Source: Pseudolabrys sp. (lineage in GTDB: Bacteria; Pseudomonadota; Alphaproteobacteria; Rhizobiales; Xanthobacteraceae). Taken from it: a stretch of 64,000 nt of DNA. Shown here piece after piece: positions 1,477 through 4,552 of the stretch. Location of the stretch: NCBI GenBank assembly GCA_035701845.1, contig DASSRJ010000170.1, positions 9,175 through 73,174 on the forward strand, read 5' to 3'. Position numbers and translations under genes: made by a program. Positions within the stretch are counted from its first letter, which is position 1. Each line of letters begins with the position of its first letter. The notes under the pieces were generated by a model. The model worked only from the letters and a program-made list of their open reading frames with translations. It did no database searches and was not told the origin of the DNA.

Positions 1477-1718
1477 AGCGGTCAGGCCGTGTGAACGGTG
1501 TTTTCCGCTTTTCCTTTCATGTGATGGATGAAGCCGTAGCCACTCGCGTTTGCCACAGCCAGCAAATCCGCTCGGTAAGCTGACCAGGTAAGGTTAAACG
1601 TTAAGATGAAGCGCCCTGTCCCGATACTTTCGATAGTAAATGACCCACACGGCGCCGGAAACGCAAAAGAGGCCGCCATAACAGCGGCCTCCACTAGTTT
1701 GATCCAAGCCAGGGACGC

Positions 1719-1976
1719 CTAGCTCTGGCTGCCGATTCCGAAATCGCGGAAATACCGAAGGCCGTAACCCTCGAAGGATTCCGCCGGTTCAGAGGCCATC
1801 GAGTCGAGGGCATGGCTCTTTCGTGTGTGGTCGCGAACGCCGTCGTCCATCGTATGCGGCGCGCGTTTTCCAGCAGCATGTATCCGATGATCCATTGCGA
1901 TGTCGTCTGCAAGCGCCGGAGCGGTTGCGGCCAGCGCCAAAGCCGAGGCGAGGAATACCTTGGTAATGATCTTCAT
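1719..1976 (-). CDS. Small secreted His-rich protein (85 aa)
   Basis: MKIITKVFLASALALAATAPALA signal peptide; GGA SD upstream of ATG 1976; the ORF-track N-terminal extension is unlikely. Confidence 0.75.
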   Translation of the reverse strand: MKIITKVFLASALALAATAPALADDIAMDHRIHAAGKRAPHTMDDGVRDHTRKSHALDSMASEPAESFEGYGLRYFRDFGIGSQS

Positions 1977-2226
1977 GGTTTTCCGTCCATTCGTTCGGGC
2001 AAGATGGATTTTCTTGCGTACGCCCGATGTGGCGGAGCGCCGCTTCACGCTCAATCCACGGTTTGGTCACGGGCGTCGCACTCCCGCTCACGAGAAAAGG
2101 AGGGAATAGTCACAACTCGCTGCCGTTTGGCGTCATGACTGCTGCGCACGCACCGGATGCTTCGTGCGCATAGGTTTCACACACACGTTATTTGTTATTG
2201 AGTTTTTTGGTCTTTAATCGCGTGTC

Positions 2227-2616
2227 ATGCGACGCGCAGACCGAAGGCCCGGCCAGAACTTCGCGCAGCGTTTGCCTGTGCAGGCAATCGCTCTGTGCAT
2301 TTTTGCCGGCGTCTCCATTCTCGCGCCATTCACTGGCGCAAGCCATGGCTTCATCGGCGCGGCTCCATCGAACGTCGGGCAAACAATTGCCGTCGTAGAA
2401 AACACTGCACCGGCATTGGGAGGCCGTTGCCATGGCGGTGTTGCGCCGACCGCAAGCGTCTTCTGTGCGATGCCAGGATTTTCCGTAACGCTTTCCTTTT
2501 GTGACGCCGCCTGCGTTGCGCCATCGGCCGTCGCTGAAAAAGTAGCAATCGCAACCAGGCCCGCGCGCACGCATCAATGGCGCAGAGGCCCGCCCTACCG
2601 CCCTCCGCGCGCCTAG
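2227..2616 (+). CDS. Putative DUF2946/CruR-like upstream ORF with C-terminal RGPP arrest-type motif
   Basis: Basic N-region, hydrophobic segment QAIALCIFAGVSILAPF, Cys/His residues (CH, C, CxxxC), C-terminus RRGPPYRPPRA; co-oriented 116 nt upstream of the DsbA-like gene. Confidence 0.6.
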   Translation: MRRADRRPGQNFAQRLPVQAIALCIFAGVSILAPFTGASHGFIGAAPSNVGQTIAVVENTAPALGGRCHGGVAPTASVFCAMPGFSVTLSFCDAACVAPSAVAEKVAIATRPARTHQWRRGPPYRPPRA

Positions 2617-2732
2617 CCACAGCCAGAACGCCCCTCCAACAACCTAGTCGGGACCTTGTGTCTCACTCTGGCGCGGCGCACGTCGCCGCAGGCCCTGCTG
2701 CAGGGCACCCATCGAACTGGAACGAAATCATC

Positions 2733-3380
2733 ATGATCAACCGACGATCCTATGTTGCAATGAACCTGACCTTGCTCGCGTCGGCGGCAAATCCATTGAC
2801 CGGCTTTGGATATACCCTCGCTGCCGCTGACAATCGTGACGTCCTCAGCCGTGAGAGTGTTTGGAATGACCCGGACATCCCGGCCTTGGGTAACCCTGAA
2901 GGGGACATCACATTGGTCGAGTATTTCGACTATCAGTGCCCGATATGCAGAGCGGTTCACCCCGATCTATCGCGCGTGATCCGCGACGACGGCAAGGTGC
3001 GTTTGGTATCGAAGAACTGGCCGATCTTCGGCGAGGCATCGATCTATGCCGCGCAGATTGCACTTGCAGCCAAATACCAGGGCAAATTCTCAGAAGCTCA
3101 CGAAGCGCTTTTTGCCGCAAAGATCTCATTCAGGCAGGGCGTTGTTCACGACATTCTGTCGAAGGCGGGCGTGAATGTTACGAAAGCCGCAAGCGACCTT
3201 GACGCCAATCGCAGGACAGTCGAAGCCGTCCTGGCGCGCAATCAGCAGCAGGCGGTCGCATTCGGTTTTCTCGGCACACCGGGTTTTATTGTTGGCACGT
3301 TCCGGATTGGCGGCGGGCTCGATGCGACTGGTTTCCGGCAAGCCATCGCTGCCGCACGCCTAGCGGTAAAATCTCCATGA
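2733..3380 (+). CDS. DsbA-family thiol-disulfide oxidoreductase with twin-arginine-like signal
   Basis: GNPEGDITLVEYFDYQCPIC active site, KNWPIFG and the GTP cis-Pro loop; N-terminus MINRRSYVA. Confidence 0.9.
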   Translation: MINRRSYVAMNLTLLASAANPLTGFGYTLAAADNRDVLSRESVWNDPDIPALGNPEGDITLVEYFDYQCPICRAVHPDLSRVIRDDGKVRLVSKNWPIFGEASIYAAQIALAAKYQGKFSEAHEALFAAKISFRQGVVHDILSKAGVNVTKAASDLDANRRTVEAVLARNQQQAVAFGFLGTPGFIVGTFRIGGGLDATGFRQAIAAARLAVKSP

Positions 3381-3769
3381 GAGCACCGATCCTTCGGATC
3401 GCTCGCATGAGCGTCGACCTCGAGACGGTCCTGCGATTCTACCGGGACGGCCTTGGGCTGACTTTACTGTTCGAGTTCAAAGACCATAACGGCTTCGACG
3501 GTGTCGTGCTCGGCCGGCGCGACGCACCGTACCATCTCGAGTTTACAAAAAAGCGCAGCCACCAGGCGGGTCCGGCACGGTCACACGACAATTTGCTTGT
3601 TTTCTATCTGCCAGACCCAGCCGCCTGGCTAACGGCAGTGCAAAGGATGCGGGAGGCAGGCTTTGCACCGGTCTCGCCCTTTAACCCATACTGGGAATGG
3701 GCAGGCGTAACTTTCGAAGATCCCGATGGCTATCGCGTCGTATCGCACAATGCGAACTGCGGCGTGTGA
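3377..3769 (+). CDS. VOC/glyoxalase family protein (YycE-like)
   Basis: LRIAR, FYRDGLGL, HLEF, NPYW and TFEDPDGYRVV motifs; ATGA overlap with the dsbA stop. Confidence 0.85.
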   Translation: MRAPILRIARMSVDLETVLRFYRDGLGLTLLFEFKDHNGFDGVVLGRRDAPYHLEFTKKRSHQAGPARSHDNLLVFYLPDPAAWLTAVQRMREAGFAPVSPFNPYWEWAGVTFEDPDGYRVVSHNANCGV

Positions 3770-3793
3770 CCCACCGCCATTCTGCGCCTTCGC

Positions 3794-4552
3794 CTAGGCG
3801 TTCTGGCGGTCGTTATCGATCGGGATCACCTGCCCCGAAATCGCCTTCGCGGCGTCGGACGCGAGGAATACCGCCAGCTGCGCGATATCCTTCGGATCGA
3901 CCATGGCCTTGATCGACGCCGCGGCCAGCGCATCCACCTTCACCTCCTCGAGCGAGCGCCCGCTGATCTGCGCACGGCCCTGGAAAACGCGCACGATCCG
4001 GTCGCCCTCCACCGCGCCAGGCGCGATTGCGTTGGCGCGGATGCCCCATTCGCCGAGCTCCATCGCCAGCGTCTTGGTCAGGCCGATGACGCCCCATTTC
4101 GTCGCGGCATAGGGGCTTCGATTGGGAAAGCCGTAACGGCCTGCAACCGACGACATGTTGATGATGCAGCCCGCCTTCGATTTCTTCAGATGCGGAATGG
4201 CAAGCCGCGAGACGTCGAACATGGCCGTAAGGTTGACCGCAACAACCTTGTCCCAATCGTCAGGCGGGTAGTCGGCGATCGGCAGCGTCAGGCCGGCAAT
4301 ACCGGCATTATTGATAAGCACGTCAAGCCCGCCGAGCGCGCCCACAGCCTCCGGCACCATCCGCTCGATCTCGGCGCGGCTCGCCATGTCGCAGCGCCGC
4401 GCGGTAATGCCGGGAATTTCCTTGACGATTGCGGCAAGAGCCTTCTCGTCGATGTCGCACACGAAGACTTTGGCGCCGTTCGCAGCGAATGCGCGAGCAA
4501 ACTCCCGGCCGATGCCGGCGGCCCCGGCCGTTATCAGGACGCGTTGCGACAT
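3794..4552 (-). CDS. SDR family oxidoreductase
   Basis: TAGAAGIG, NNAG, catalytic YAATK and NAIAPG. Confidence 0.92.
   Translation of the reverse strand: MSQRVLITAGAAGIGREFARAFAANGAKVFVCDIDEKALAAIVKEIPGITARRCDMASRAEIERMVPEAVGALGGLDVLINNAGIAGLTLPIADYPPDDWDKVVAVNLTAMFDVSRLAIPHLKKSKAGCIINMSSVAGRYGFPNRSPYAATKWGVIGLTKTLAMELGEWGIRANAIAPGAVEGDRIVRVFQGRAQISGRSLEEVKVDALAAASIKAMVDPKDIAQLAVFLASDAAKAISGQVIPIDNDRQNA

What the first reader, a model, noticed from the sequence alone, without database searches (positions are those of the whole stretch)
2227..3769. Candidate ribosome-arrest uORF (RGPP motif) controlling a DsbA-like/VOC operon
Seen: a 129-aa ORF with a basic N-region, a signal/TM segment, Cys and His residues (GRCHG, VFCA, CDAAC = CxxxC) and the C-terminus RRGPPYRPPRA (RGPP at 2584-2595). 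A C-rich, G-poor stretch (~2593-2650) and a 116-nt gap follow before the co-oriented dsbA-like start, which has only a weak SD. Established: RAPP/RGPP/RAGP-type motifs stall ribosomes (SecM, ApdA/ApdP/ApcA), and the DUF2946 protein CruR uses a CxxC plus RAPP architecture to regulate a downstream gene in response to copper. Inference: this is an export-coupled nascent-chain sensor of metal or periplasmic thiol status that tunes dsbA expression, with the C-rich spacer as a possible Rho site. I do not recall an arrest peptide being described for a disulfide oxidoreductase. Automatic callers may prefer the antisense ORFs and miss it.
Basis: partly seen in the sequence, partly recalled or inferred. 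Interest (0 to 1): 0.85.

Follow-up and report, generated by a model that had tools for sequence, protein, structure and literature searches.

The report
Unannotated leader gene of Scs operons
The 129-codon reading frame is a real but unannotated gene for a small exported, two-cysteine protein that heads disulfide-enzyme operons in soil alphaproteobacteria, and its invariant proline-rich end suggests, without proof, that it pauses the ribosome to control the enzyme genes behind it.

Summary
ORF length and codon composition give no support for a gene; comparative evidence does.

- **Conservation:** start, stop and frame are kept in relatives, the only indel is 3 nt, and dN/dS is about 0.4.
- **Family:** the ORF matches a profile built without it (E=6e-13). 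About 85 unannotated or "hypothetical" proteins share a signal peptide, an invariant C-x11-C pair, a fixed 42-45-residue spacer, Q[W/C] and an almost invariant RPP(R) 1-3 residues before the stop.
- **Context:** in every locus with readable downstream sequence it is the first gene of a ScsB/ScsC-type thiol-disulfide oxidoreductase operon, with or without an L,D-transpeptidase.
it is not DUF2946. RGPP and CDAAC occur only in the window's own lineage; the family motif is [F/Y/D]RPP.
- **Peptide-level selection:** six Arg codons and all four Pro codons are used at the motif.
- **Downstream platforms differ:** this locus has an extreme C-rich, G-poor tract across the stop codon plus a conserved GC hairpin. 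Bradyrhizobium relatives have helices pairing the Pro codons with the next gene's Shine-Dalgarno sequence.

A cis-acting, export-coupled arrest-peptide sensor is the best reading but is untested. RGPP uORFs upstream of DsbA-family genes were reported in 2025, so this is a new variant of a known kind.

The parts
2143..2170 (.). Inverted repeat TGCGCACG-N12-CGTGCGCA in the divergent promoter region. It may be an operator.
   Evidence: Read. It is kept in L006 and largely in L090, but not in the distant L091. Function unknown.
2192..2220 (+). Promoter-like TTGTTA-N17-TAATCG that ends 6 nt before the ATG. This spacing implies a leaderless or near-leaderless mRNA, and there is no SD.
   Evidence: A T(T/C)GTnn-N17-TA(A/T)T(C/G)G block at a fixed distance from the ATG is conserved in window, L006, L090, L091 and L088. 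The generic sigma-70 scan did not flag it. This is inference only.
2227..2616 (+). Leader ORF of 129 aa, unannotated, and a member of a new small-protein family.
   Evidence: Same start, stop and frame in L006 and L090, with one 3-nt indel. Substitutions by codon position are 28/23/43 and omega is 0.38-0.44, against about 0.95 in the other + frames. A profile built without it gives E=5.9e-13, with the next-best window ORF at 0.06.
2227..2349 (+). Predicted Sec-type signal peptide (about residues 1-41): basic n-region, hydrophobic core at 21-35, small residues TGASHG.
   Evidence: Hydropathy. The AF2 helix at 16-32 is the only confident internal element. All family members have the same layout, with AFA/ARA-type sites in the Bradyrhizobium type. 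No dedicated signal-peptide predictor was available.
2428..2466 (+). Invariant cysteine pair C68 ... C80 (C-x11-C), the candidate sensing element.
   Evidence: Both Cys are invariant in alignments A1-A3. The spacing is 11 residues in 80 of 85 members. The second Cys lies 42-45 residues before the R of RPP (43 in 75 of 85; 44 in the window).
2500..2514 (+). It is lineage-specific.
   Evidence: Present in window, L006 and L090 only. Absent from all other subfamilies.
2584..2595 (+). RGPP (R120-P123), a published strong arrest motif, here with the rare AGA Arg codon.
   Evidence: Kept in window, L006 and L090 with synonymous changes. Relatives have RGGPP, RGFPP, RTLPP or LAAPQ instead. RGPP arrest strength is from PMC12992588.
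2599..2610 (+). RPPR (R125-R128), the family-wide C-terminal motif. It is followed by one codon and then TAG at 2614-2616.
   Evidence: P126 and P127 are invariant, and R125 and R128 nearly so. In 23 distinct DNA sequences R125 uses six Arg codons and P127 all four Pro codons. P126 is CCT in 19 of 23, although CCT is only 8% of Pro codons in the window's long ORFs.
2589..2648 (+). C-rich, G-poor tract (32 C, 10 G) straddling the stop codon. It is a candidate Rho-loading (rut) site.
   Evidence: It lies in the top 0.003% of 60-nt windows in the 64 kb. The composition, but not the sequence, is kept in L006 (28 C / 9 G) and L090 (26 C / 12 G).
2673..2689 (+). GC hairpin GCGGCG-CACGT-CGCCGC with no U-run. 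It may be an RNA polymerase pause or structural element.
   Evidence: The stem is invariant and the loop varies in window, L006 and L090. There is no covariation, and the overall IGR fold has z=0.0.
2733..3380 (+). ScsC-type DsbA-like periplasmic thiol-disulfide oxidoreductase (CPIC active site, N-terminal signal).
   Evidence: Pfam Thioredoxin_4 at 1.4e-18 and DSBA at 2.5e-16. The best solved relatives include 7rgv, 4gxz ("Suppression of copper sensitivity protein"), and 6nen, 6mhh and 4xvw.
3377..3769 (+). YycE-like VOC/glyoxalase-fold protein. Gene callers start it at 3407 (120 aa).
   Evidence: Pfam YycE-like_N and YycE-like_C plus Glyoxalase. The 120-aa form is the one called in public contigs.

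Best explanation
ORF 2227-2616 is a genuine, translated gene. It encodes a small Sec-exported protein of a previously unnamed alphaproteobacterial family whose conserved job is to be the first gene of ScsB/ScsC-type envelope thiol-disulfide oxidoreductase operons.

I propose it acts mainly in cis as a regulatory nascent chain. The steps are:
1. The ribosome pauses or arrests at the almost invariant [F/Y/D]RPP(R) motif 1-3 codons before the stop. In this lineage the RGPP five codons earlier reinforces the pause.
2. At that moment the invariant C68/C80 pair, a fixed 42-45 residues from the arrest point, is emerging from the ribosome into the Sec translocon and periplasm.
3. What happens to those cysteines (oxidation, mixed disulfide or Cu binding), together with the pull of export, sets how long the ribosome stays.
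4. The parked ribosome controls the downstream genes. In this window it would cover the C-rich rut-like tract that straddles the stop codon and so prevent Rho-dependent termination before the scsC-like gene. In Bradyrhizobium and Afipia relatives it would occupy the 5' strands of helices that otherwise pair the Pro-Pro codons (CCUCC) with the GGAG Shine-Dalgarno sequence of the next gene.

Shown: gene reality, family membership, motif and spacer conservation at the peptide level, and operon linkage.

Inferred: stalling, the sensed signal, its direction, and the Rho or SD-unmasking read-out.
For: **Coding and conserved.** Start, stop and frame are kept, the only indel is 3 nt, omega is 0.38-0.44, and dS is about equal to that of the neighbouring dsbA-like gene. 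The antisense frames carry stops in one relative or another.

**Family.** A word-index search found 62 clusters and an exhaustive HMM search found 23 representatives, none with a Pfam domain. The window ORF scores E=5.9e-13 against a profile that excludes it.

**Architecture.** C-x11-C in 80 of 85 members, a Cys-to-RPP spacer of 42-45 residues, and a tail of 1 or 3 residues. The rest of the mature part is poorly conserved and AF2 predicts it disordered, with pLDDT below 50 for residues 39-119.

**Peptide-level selection on the C-terminus.** The last 14 codons show 2-5 synonymous against 0-1 non-synonymous differences. Six Arg codons and four Pro codons are used at the motif.

**Linkage in every locus with readable downstream sequence, in four gene orders.**
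- Leader, then ScsC-like gene (window, L006, L090).
- Leader, then YkuD L,D-transpeptidase, then ScsB, then DsbA-like gene (L019 and others, L093, L096/097).
- Leader, then ScsB, then DsbA-like gene (L094/095).
- Leader, then a ScsB-like gene with no further gene seen (L091, L088).

**Read-out elements.** The C-rich tract is extreme and compositionally conserved. The Bradyrhizobium-type consensus structure pairs CCUCC with GGAG, with 97% of cells paired and one covarying pair in the hairpin next to the stop.

**Precedents.**
- CruR has Cys and RAPP motifs 45 residues apart and uses Rho (PMC9426467).
- CutF uses a stem-loop over an SD (PMC9973294).
- RGPP is the strongest and most avoided arrest motif, and RGPP uORFs are enriched upstream of DsbA-family genes (PMC12992588).
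Against: - No experiment or ribosome-occupancy data exist for any member. The RNA-labelled public runs were uninformative.
- xRPP is not a published RAPP-like (RxPP) motif, so its arrest capacity is unknown. In CutF a proline-rich C-terminus did not stall on its own in reporter assays.
- RGPP is lineage-specific, so it cannot be the ancestral mechanism.
- The window's intergenic region has no unusual folding energy (z=0.0) and no covariation.
- The Bradyrhizobium-type helices barely vary, so they are supported by conservation only.
- A C-rich tract is partly a by-product of Pro and Ala codons.
- An independent promoter for the scsC-like gene in 2617-2732 cannot be excluded.
- Only 21 of 80 ScsC-like loci from the genome scan carry a family member within 4 kb, so the leader is optional.
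Confidence: 0.5

Rival explanations
1. The small protein is a working periplasmic component of the Scs-like system, for example a redox- or copper-binding accessory, substrate or adaptor for ScsB/ScsC, and so a positional analogue of Salmonella ScsA. On this view the conserved C-terminus serves protein-protein recognition or processing, and there is no cis regulation by ribosome arrest.
For: It is conserved as the first gene of the operon, as scsA is in scsABCD. ScsA is also a small Cys-containing protein of unknown function (PMC10907172). The family has an exported architecture and two invariant cysteines. AF2 hints at a beta-hairpin around C80, at residues 77-90, though with low confidence.
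Against: Apart from the two Cys and the last ~12 residues, the mature sequence is poorly conserved and predicted disordered, yet its length is fixed to within 1-2 residues. That is a ruler-like pattern, unusual for a binding domain. The strongest conservation is at the last residues translated, next to structured or C-rich RNA that differs between subfamilies. Rare codons sit at the motif: CCT at P126, and AGA at R120 in the window. Homology to ScsA was not tested, and the described ScsA features (lipobox, CLAC, TAQRMAGLHAL) are absent from this sequence.
Confidence: 0.3
2. One reading: a DUF2946/CruR-type copper sensor in which the CDAAC CxxxC senses metal and RGPP is the operative arrest site, releasing or imposing Rho termination before dsbA.
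For: RGPP is present and kept in three orthologues with synonymous changes. RGPP is the strongest known RAPP-like motif. There is a C-rich tract after the stop. CDAAC is kept in the same three orthologues.
Against: There is no DUF2946 match by HMM or by profile-profile comparison. RGPP and CDAAC are absent from every other subfamily that keeps the same operon linkage. CDAAC would lie only 23 residues from RGPP, inside the exit tunnel, when the ribosome is on RGPP. C68 and C80, not CDAAC, are invariant.
Confidence: 0.1
3. There is no functional gene: the ORF is a chance open frame in a conserved non-coding 5' leader or promoter region of the scsC-like gene.
For: GC by codon position is flat and no frame has a positive coding score. 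No SD is present, gene callers skip it, and overlapping antisense ORFs of similar length exist.
Against: The evolutionary signature is frame-specific. The only indel is in frame, whereas the flanks carry indels that are not multiples of three. The profile match is E=5.9e-13 to proteins from other genera that are annotated as genes. Synonymous codon turnover occurs at invariant residues.
Confidence: 0.03

Closest known systems
CruR (Bordetella pertussis Bp2923; DUF2946) - PMC9426467
   Same: A small protein with an N-terminal signal-like segment. A Cys motif lies at a fixed ~45-residue distance from a C-terminal Arg/Pro-Pro motif a few residues before the stop, with a W about 8 residues before the PP. 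It is the first gene of an envelope-homeostasis operon. It has a long (162 nt versus 116 nt here) GC- and C-rich intergenic region, where Rho terminates unless the ribosome is arrested.
   Different: No sequence homology was detectable. The Cys motif is CXXC versus C-x11-C here. The Pro motif is RAPP versus [F/Y/D]RPP here. The downstream gene is a TonB-dependent transporter versus ScsB/ScsC oxidoreductases here. CruR's regulation is independent of its signal peptide, and nothing is known on that point for this family.
CutF (Rhodobacter capsulatus cutFOG; DUF2946) - PMC9973294
   Same: A Sec-exported alphaproteobacterial leader protein with a Cys motif and a proline-rich C-terminus. Its translation and export in cis open a stem-loop that hides the SD of the next gene. 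This matches the CCUCC:GGAG pairing predicted in the Bradyrhizobium and Afipia members.
   Different: It belongs to a different family, has a CxxxC motif, and sits upstream of a multicopper oxidase. The window's own locus has no SD-sequestering helix that I could find.
RAPP/RGPP-type arrest peptides (SecM, ApdA, ApdP, ApcA; S. lividans SLIV_27375 upstream of a thioredoxin-like gene) - PMC12992588, PMC10951233, PMC7897499
   Same: RGPP lies near the C-terminus of a small secretory protein with a co-oriented downstream gene. DsbA-family and thioredoxin genes are among the enriched downstream classes (376 RGPP versus 16 AGPP uORFs).
   Different: The DsbA-linked RGPP uORFs reported there are predicted to be mostly TM proteins (335 TM versus 22 signal-peptide), and the examples shown are Streptomyces proteins of about 220 aa. 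Here the protein is a ~125-aa signal-peptide protein whose family-wide motif is RPP(R), not RxPP. The window ORF is not in the public protein collection searched here, so a proteome-based screen may well have missed it.
ScsA of the Salmonella scsABCD operon - PMC10907172
   Same: A small Cys-containing protein of unknown function, encoded as the first gene ahead of scsB, scsC and scsD.
   Different: ScsA is described with a lipobox, a CLAC CX2C motif in its N-terminal hydrophobic segment, and a peroxidase-like signature. No proline-rich C-terminus is reported. Homology was not tested here because no ScsA sequence was at hand.

Membership tests
DUF2946 (PF11162; CruR/CutF-like) | Match to the Pfam DUF2946 model | tested here: not met
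   The window ORF, L006 and three Bradyrhizobium/Afipia members gave no hit at E<=1-10. None of 24 family members hit it at E<=10. hhalign of the family against six DUF2946 proteins gave 3.2% probability over 14 C-terminal columns.
DUF2946 (PF11162; CruR/CutF-like) | Conserved CXXC/CxxxC metal-binding motif | tested here: not met
   CDAAC exists in window, L006 and L090 only. The family-invariant cysteines are C-x11-C.
DUF2946 (PF11162; CruR/CutF-like) | C-terminal RAPP/RGPP about 3 residues from the end, at a fixed ~45-residue distance from the Cys motif | tested here: inconclusive
   The spacer is 42-45 residues and the tail is 1-3 residues, which matches. The motif, however, is [F/Y/D]RPP(R). 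RGPP occurs in one lineage only.
RAPP-like arrest peptides (Fujiwara/Chiba class) | RAPP, RGPP, RAGP or RAPG near the C-terminus of a small (<300 aa) secretory or membrane protein with a co-oriented downstream gene | tested here: met
   RGPP lies at residues 120-123 of 129, the hydrophobic N-terminal core is at residues 21-35, and the scsC-like gene lies 116 nt downstream on the same strand.
RAPP-like arrest peptides (Fujiwara/Chiba class) | The RxPP motif is conserved among homologues | tested here: not met
   It is kept only in window, L006 and L090. About 80 other members lack R-x-P-P in register.
RAPP-like arrest peptides (Fujiwara/Chiba class) | Demonstrated elongation arrest (peptidyl-tRNA accumulation, toeprint) that depends on the Arg | not testable with these tools
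   This needs in vitro translation or toeprinting. No Ribo-seq was found.
New family defined here (Scs-operon leader protein) | Signal peptide, C-x11-C, a 42-45-residue spacer, Q[W/C]-x5-6-[F/Y/D/L]RPP and a 1-3-residue tail, with a profile match | tested here: met
   E=5.9e-13 against a profile built from 81 other members, and E=4.5e-4 against the Bradyrhizobium-type members alone. All motifs are in register in A3.
New family defined here (Scs-operon leader protein) | First gene, co-oriented, of an operon encoding ScsB-like DsbD and/or ScsC-like DsbA | tested here: met
   The window has the leader followed by a ScsC-like gene. Relatives are covered. No ScsB or L,D-transpeptidase homologue lies elsewhere in the 64 kb.
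Rho-dependent attenuator masked by a stalled ribosome (TnaC/CruR type) | An unstructured C-rich, G-poor tract of about 60-80 nt adjoining the leader's stop codon, followed by a pause element | tested here: met
   32 C and 10 G over 2589-2648, in the top 0.003% of the window. The composition is kept in orthologues. A conserved hairpin lies at 2673-2689.
Rho-dependent attenuator masked by a stalled ribosome (TnaC/CruR type) | Termination in the intergenic region that depends on Rho and on leader translation | not testable with these tools
   This needs bicyclomycin or rho mutants, Term-seq or reporter fusions.
ScsA (Salmonella) | Sequence homology to ScsA; lipobox and CLAC motif | not tested
The described features are not visible in the window protein.
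ScsC / DsbA-like (downstream gene 2733-3380) | Thioredoxin fold with a CxxC active site, similarity to solved ScsC proteins, and a signal peptide | tested here: met
   Pfam DSBA and Thioredoxin_4. The CPIC motif is in the sequence. PDB matches are 3gyk (7.5e-35), 7rgv (8e-23) and 4gxz ScsC (2.4e-16).

The most novel reading that the evidence does not exclude
This is a previously unrecognised class of exported, cysteine-based nascent-chain sensor. It uses a non-RAPP arrest motif ([F/Y/D]-R-P-P, preceded by Q-W). It couples the thiol-redox or copper state of the periplasm directly to expression of the ScsB/ScsC reducing pathway and its client L,D-transpeptidase. The same sensor peptide is wired to different read-outs in different lineages: Rho attenuation here and SD unmasking in Bradyrhizobium and Afipia.
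Probability: 0.35. Interest if true: 0.8.

Novelty: new variant of a known kind. Interest (0 to 1): 0.62.

Why it matters
If correct, it would extend regulation by arrest peptides from protein export and copper uptake to envelope disulfide and redox homeostasis in alphaproteobacteria. It would also add a new arrest motif (xRPP) to the RAPP/RGPP set.

It would show one sensor peptide coupled to different RNA read-outs in different lineages. It would give a handle on how ScsB/ScsC operons, and the L,D-transpeptidase they accompany, are induced.

On the practical side, it exposes a conserved gene family that annotation pipelines either miss (the window lineage) or label "hypothetical". Screens keyed on RAPP/RGPP motifs in predicted proteomes would overlook it.

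Tried and rejected
- **Family libraries.** Pfam and NCBIfam scans of the ORF, its antisense ORFs and relatives gave nothing.
- **Rfam.** A scan of 1900-2800 at E<=1 gave no family.
- **Composition.** Codon-usage and GC3 scoring showed no coding signal in any frame, so composition cannot decide.
- **DUF2946.** The profile-profile comparison gave no homology.
- **Promoters and terminators.** The sigma-70 scan of 1700-4000 found no promoter. The terminator-like hits are at chance level and none lies in the intergenic region.
- **RNA structure in the window.** Folding 2560-2760 gave z=0.0. RNAalifold of the three window-type intergenic regions gave no covarying pair.
- **Structure prediction.** AF2 with a 20-sequence alignment gave mean pLDDT 52, which is not usable for a fold search.
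- **Sequencing runs.** Two metagenome runs labelled "GENOMIC RNA-Seq" hold only short contigs over 2058-2460. The Bradyrhizobium "RNA" runs contain 16-52 kb contigs, presumably DNA, so they give no information on transcription units.
- **Metagenome scan.** The query with the full family alignment failed for lack of a conserved block. The subfamily query returned only three loci.
- **Other ScsB contexts.** On plasmids of Indioceanicola, Paraburkholderia, Jannaschia and Martelella there is no such leader.
- **Azospirillum.** A plasmid ORF has the same architecture but only a 7.9-bit profile score, so homology is unproven.
- **Literature.** No paper links ScsB with arrest peptides, and none mentions RPPR stalling.
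Full report
**1. Observation.**

The ORF runs from ATG 2227 to TAG 2616 on the + strand and encodes 129 aa:

MRRADRRPGQNFAQRLPVQAIALCIFAGVSILAPFTGASHGFIGAAPSNVGQTIAVVENTAPALGGRCHGGVAPTASVFCAMPGFSVTLSFCDAACVAPSAVAEKVAIATRPARTHQWRRGPPYRPPRA

- RGPP is at 2584-2595 and RPPR at 2599-2610.
- The Cys residues are at 24, 68, 80, 92 and 96.
- The hydrophobic core is at residues 21-35.
- The next gene starts 116 nt downstream at 2733. It is a DsbA/Thioredoxin_4 protein, and a YycE-like VOC protein follows it.
- The 60 nt from 2589 contain 32 C and 10 G. Only 0.003% of all 60-nt windows of the 64 kb, counting both strands, are as skewed.

The ORF by itself is not evidence of a gene. Two antisense ORFs of 129 and 118 aa overlap it. 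GC by codon position is flat at 0.65/0.62/0.61, against about 0.65/0.45/0.65 in the neighbouring genes, and no frame has a positive codon score. Neither it nor the antisense ORFs were ever called as genes in public assemblies.

**2. It is a real gene.**

The organism is a Xanthobacteraceae/Bradyrhizobium-like soil bacterium known from metagenomes. I compared the ORF with two diverged relatives.

- In L006, the closest genome in the scan (DsbA-like protein 82% identical), the same ATG, stop and frame are kept. The single indel inside the ORF is 3 nt, whereas the flanking non-coding DNA has indels that are not multiples of three.
- Against L006, substitutions fall 28/23/43 on codon positions 1/2/3. 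dN/dS is 0.40, against about 0.95 in the two other + frames. dS is 0.55, about equal to that of the neighbouring dsbA-like gene at 0.62.
- A third orthologue, L090, gives omega values of 0.38-0.44 in the pairwise comparisons. In the last 14 codons there are 2-5 synonymous against 0-1 non-synonymous differences.
- The antisense frames carry stops in one relative or another.

**3. It belongs to an unnamed family.**

A tblastn search of the loci fetched around DsbA homologues first showed weak hits to ~125-aa ORFs in Bradyrhizobium and Afipia that end in QWLAAPQ(F/Y)RPPRxxA*.

- A profile search of the 5.8-billion-protein collection found 62 clusters. All are "hypothetical" and none has a Pfam domain.
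- An exhaustive HMMER scan of 1.84 billion representatives found 23, including intermediates that bridge to the window type, such as ...AHQWRGFPPDRPPRS.
- A profile built from 81 members without the window lineage scores the window ORF at E=5.9e-13. The next-best of 739 six-frame ORFs in the window scores 0.06.

The family signature comes:
- A basic and hydrophobic signal peptide, with AFA/ARA-type cleavage sites in many members.
- Two invariant cysteines spaced C-x11-C, in 80 of 85 members.
- A poorly conserved stretch of fixed length, with 42-45 residues from the second Cys to the Arg of RPP. The value is 43 in 75 of 85 members and 44 in the window.
- An invariant Q followed by W or C.
- [F/Y/D/L]-R-P-P, usually followed by R, and then 1 or 3 residues to the stop.

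AlphaFold2 predicts only the signal-peptide helix with confidence. Residues 39-119 have pLDDT below 50.

**4.

RGPP (R120-P123) and CDAAC (C92-C96) occur only in window, L006 and L090. Sister subfamilies have RGGPP, RGFPP, RTLPP or LAAPQ, and none has a CxxxC. The family-wide elements are C68, C80 and RPP.

Conservation acts on the peptide. In 23 distinct DNA sequences:
- R125 uses six different Arg codons.
- P127 uses all four Pro codons.
- R128 uses four Arg codons.

One nucleotide-level oddity stands out. P126 is CCT in 19 of 23 sequences, although CCT supplies only 8% of Pro codons in the window's long ORFs. In addition, R120 of the window's RGPP uses AGA, which supplies 1.2% of Arg codons.

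**5. Context.**

Wherever downstream sequence could be read, the gene is the co-oriented first gene of a thiol-disulfide oxidoreductase operon. Four gene orders occur.

- **Window, L006, L090:** leader, then a ScsC-like DsbA, with a VOC gene next in the window.
- **Afipia broomeae and many Bradyrhizobium, L093, L096/097:** leader, then a YkuD L,D-transpeptidase, then a ScsB-like DsbD of about 700 aa. In L019 a DsbA-like gene and a 159-aa gene follow; L093 and L096/097 end in or just after the gene that follows YkuD.
- **L094/095:** leader, then ScsB-like, then DsbA-like.
- **L091, L088:** leader, then a ScsB-like gene, with no further gene seen.

The window's DsbA-like protein has ScsC proteins among its closest solved relatives: 7rgv, 4gxz, 6nen, 6mhh and 4xvw. 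No ScsB or L,D-transpeptidase homologue lies elsewhere in the 64 kb.

The leader is optional. Only 21 of the 80 ScsC-like loci from the genome scan have a family member within 4 kb, and ScsB operons on several plasmids lack it. An Azospirillum plasmid has an architecturally similar ORF, with C-x11-C and ...LPPPRPSA*, ahead of dsbD-dsbA. Its profile score is only 7.9 bits, so homology is unproven.

**6. Cis elements.**

*Upstream.* A block T(T/C)GTnn-N17-TA(A/T)TnG ends 6 nt before the ATG in five lineages, and no SD is present. I infer a leaderless or near-leaderless mRNA. Together with the flat composition, this would explain why gene callers miss the ORF.

*Downstream, in the window lineage.* The C-rich, G-poor composition across the stop codon is kept although the sequence is not, at 28 C / 9 G in L006 and 26 C / 12 G in L090. 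A GCGGCG-N5-CGCCGC hairpin at 2673-2689 is invariant. Overall folding of the region is unremarkable (z=0.0) and shows no covariation.

*Downstream, in the Bradyrhizobium and Afipia type.* The intergenic region is about 55 nt. Its features are:
- A hairpin begins 1-3 nt after the stop and has one covarying pair (U-A to C-G).
- RNAalifold stacks three further helices around that hairpin.
- Their 5' strands are the Pro-Pro codons (CCUCC), the Arg-Ile codons (GGAUC) and the last sense codon with the first base of the stop (CGCA).
- Their 3' strands include the GGAG Shine-Dalgarno sequence of the L,D-transpeptidase gene.
- 97% of cells are paired, but there is almost no variation to test the structure.

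A ribosome held with the second Pro codon in its P site would cover exactly those 5' strands.

*Downstream, in L088 and L091.* These have long GC-rich intergenic regions, with a strong hairpin just after the stop.

**7. Mechanism proposed.**

The pattern resembles the anatomy of SecM, MifM, CruR and CutF. It has four parts:
- An exported, otherwise unconstrained chain.
- Two invariant cysteines held at a fixed distance from an invariant Pro-Pro at the very end.
- Rare codons at that spot.
- RNA elements next to the stop that differ between lineages.

When the ribosome sits on RPP, C80 is 47 residues and C68 is 59 residues from the P site. That is about the distance needed to reach the translocon and the periplasmic face. 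This is an inference from published arrest-peptide force studies, not something measured here.

I therefore propose the following sequence. The ribosome pauses at RPP, helped in this lineage by RGPP. The fate of the Cys pair during export (oxidation, mixed disulfide with a Dsb/Scs enzyme, or Cu(I) binding) modulates the pulling force and so the dwell time. The dwell time then sets downstream expression.

Here the read-out would be occlusion of the rut-like tract that spans the stop codon, as with TnaC and CruR. In Bradyrhizobium it would be freeing of the SD, as with SecM and CutF. I cannot tell the direction of the response or the identity of the signal.

My confidence by step is:

| Claim | Confidence |
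|---|---|
| Real gene and family member | about 0.95 |
| Functional link to Scs-type operons | about 0.85 |
| Cis-regulatory pausing | about 0.5 |
| Rho as the read-out in this window | about 0.3 |

**8. Comparison with known systems.**

It works like CruR or CutF but is not a DUF2946 member.

Taken alone, the window protein satisfies the descriptive criteria of the RAPP/RGPP class, but the family does not keep RxPP.

Fujiwara et al. 2025 (PMC12992588) already reported that RGPP uORFs are enriched 42-fold upstream of "DsbA family protein" genes (376 versus 16). These are predicted to be mostly TM proteins, and the examples shown are Streptomyces proteins of about 220 aa. The authors also showed that one RGPP protein upstream of a thioredoxin-like gene arrests in vitro. 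The general idea is therefore published.

What is new is this alphaproteobacterial signal-peptide family, its xRPP motif, its C-x11-C pair with a fixed spacer, and its link to ScsB/ScsC and L,D-transpeptidase operons. No paper in the searchable library connects Scs operons with arrest peptides, and none mentions RPPR stalling.

ScsA of Salmonella is a positional analogue of unknown function. Homology to it was not tested.

**9. Verdict.**

It is a new variant of a known kind. The regulatory mechanism is plausible but wholly untested.

Noticed in passing
window 1719-1976 (- strand): Divergently transcribed 85-aa gene for a small secreted, His-rich protein (MKIITKVFLASALALAATAPALA|DDIAMDHRIHAAGKRAPHTMDDGVRDHTRKSHALD...). 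It is called by gene finders, has no Pfam match, and is conserved next to the leader ORF in L090. It may be a metal-binding periplasmic protein sharing the promoter region with the leader.
   Followed up: no
window 2143-2170: Perfect 8-bp inverted repeat TGCGCACG-N12-CGTGCGCA between the divergent genes. It is kept in L006 and mostly in L090, and is absent from L091. It could be an operator or an RNA hairpin.
   Followed up: partly
window 2587-2604 and family loci: There is rare-codon use at the putative pause sites. The first Pro of RPP is CCT in 19 of 23 distinct family sequences, against 8% CCT in the window's genes. R120 of the window's RGPP is AGA (1.2% usage). This could reflect slow decoding or an RNA-pairing constraint (CCUCC).
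   Followed up: partly
L010-L060 (Bradyrhizobium/Afipia loci), about 25 nt before to 60 nt after the leader's stop: The predicted nested helices pair the leader's last codons (CCUCC, GGAUC, CGCA) with the region holding the GGAG SD of the L,D-transpeptidase gene. They enclose a hairpin with one covarying pair. Almost no sequence variation is available to test them.
   Followed up: partly
window 3377-3410: The VOC gene has two possible starts. ATG 3377 overlaps the dsbA-like stop (ATGA) and gives 130 aa. ATG 3407 gives 120 aa, and that form is the one mostly called in public assemblies.
   Followed up: no
window 2058-2460: Two metagenome runs labelled "GENOMIC RNA-Seq" hold short, 100%-identical contigs that cover only 2058-2333 and 2307-2460. 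That is the promoter region and the 5' two-thirds of the leader ORF, and nothing of the dsbA-like gene. This is suggestive of a leader transcript, but the library type is ambiguous and the depth is very low.
   Followed up: partly
L098 1805-2194 (Azospirillum sp. TSA2s plasmid p1, WP_136705905.1): An annotated hypothetical protein of 129 aa with a signal peptide, C-x11-C and a C-terminal ...DLPPPRPSA*, lying 130 nt upstream of dsbD-dsbA. It has the same architecture as the family but only a 7.9-bit profile score. It may be a distant or convergent relative in Rhodospirillales.
   Followed up: partly
L025, L044, L059, L078, L085 (photosynthetic and other Bradyrhizobium): A subfamily ends in ...TTQCHASSPYRPPCRRS*, with Cys in place of the Arg after RPP and Q-C in place of Q-W. 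This shows that only R-P-P and Q are strictly kept.
   Followed up: partly
L094 161-4384 and L096 1432-4840: In some relatives the leader-scsB operon sits next to sulfur-oxidation and sulfur-transfer genes: flavocytochrome c sulfide dehydrogenase-like genes, Sulf_transp, and rhodanese with TauE and an ArsR/MarR-type regulator. This hints at a link with reactive sulfur or thiol stress.
   Followed up: no
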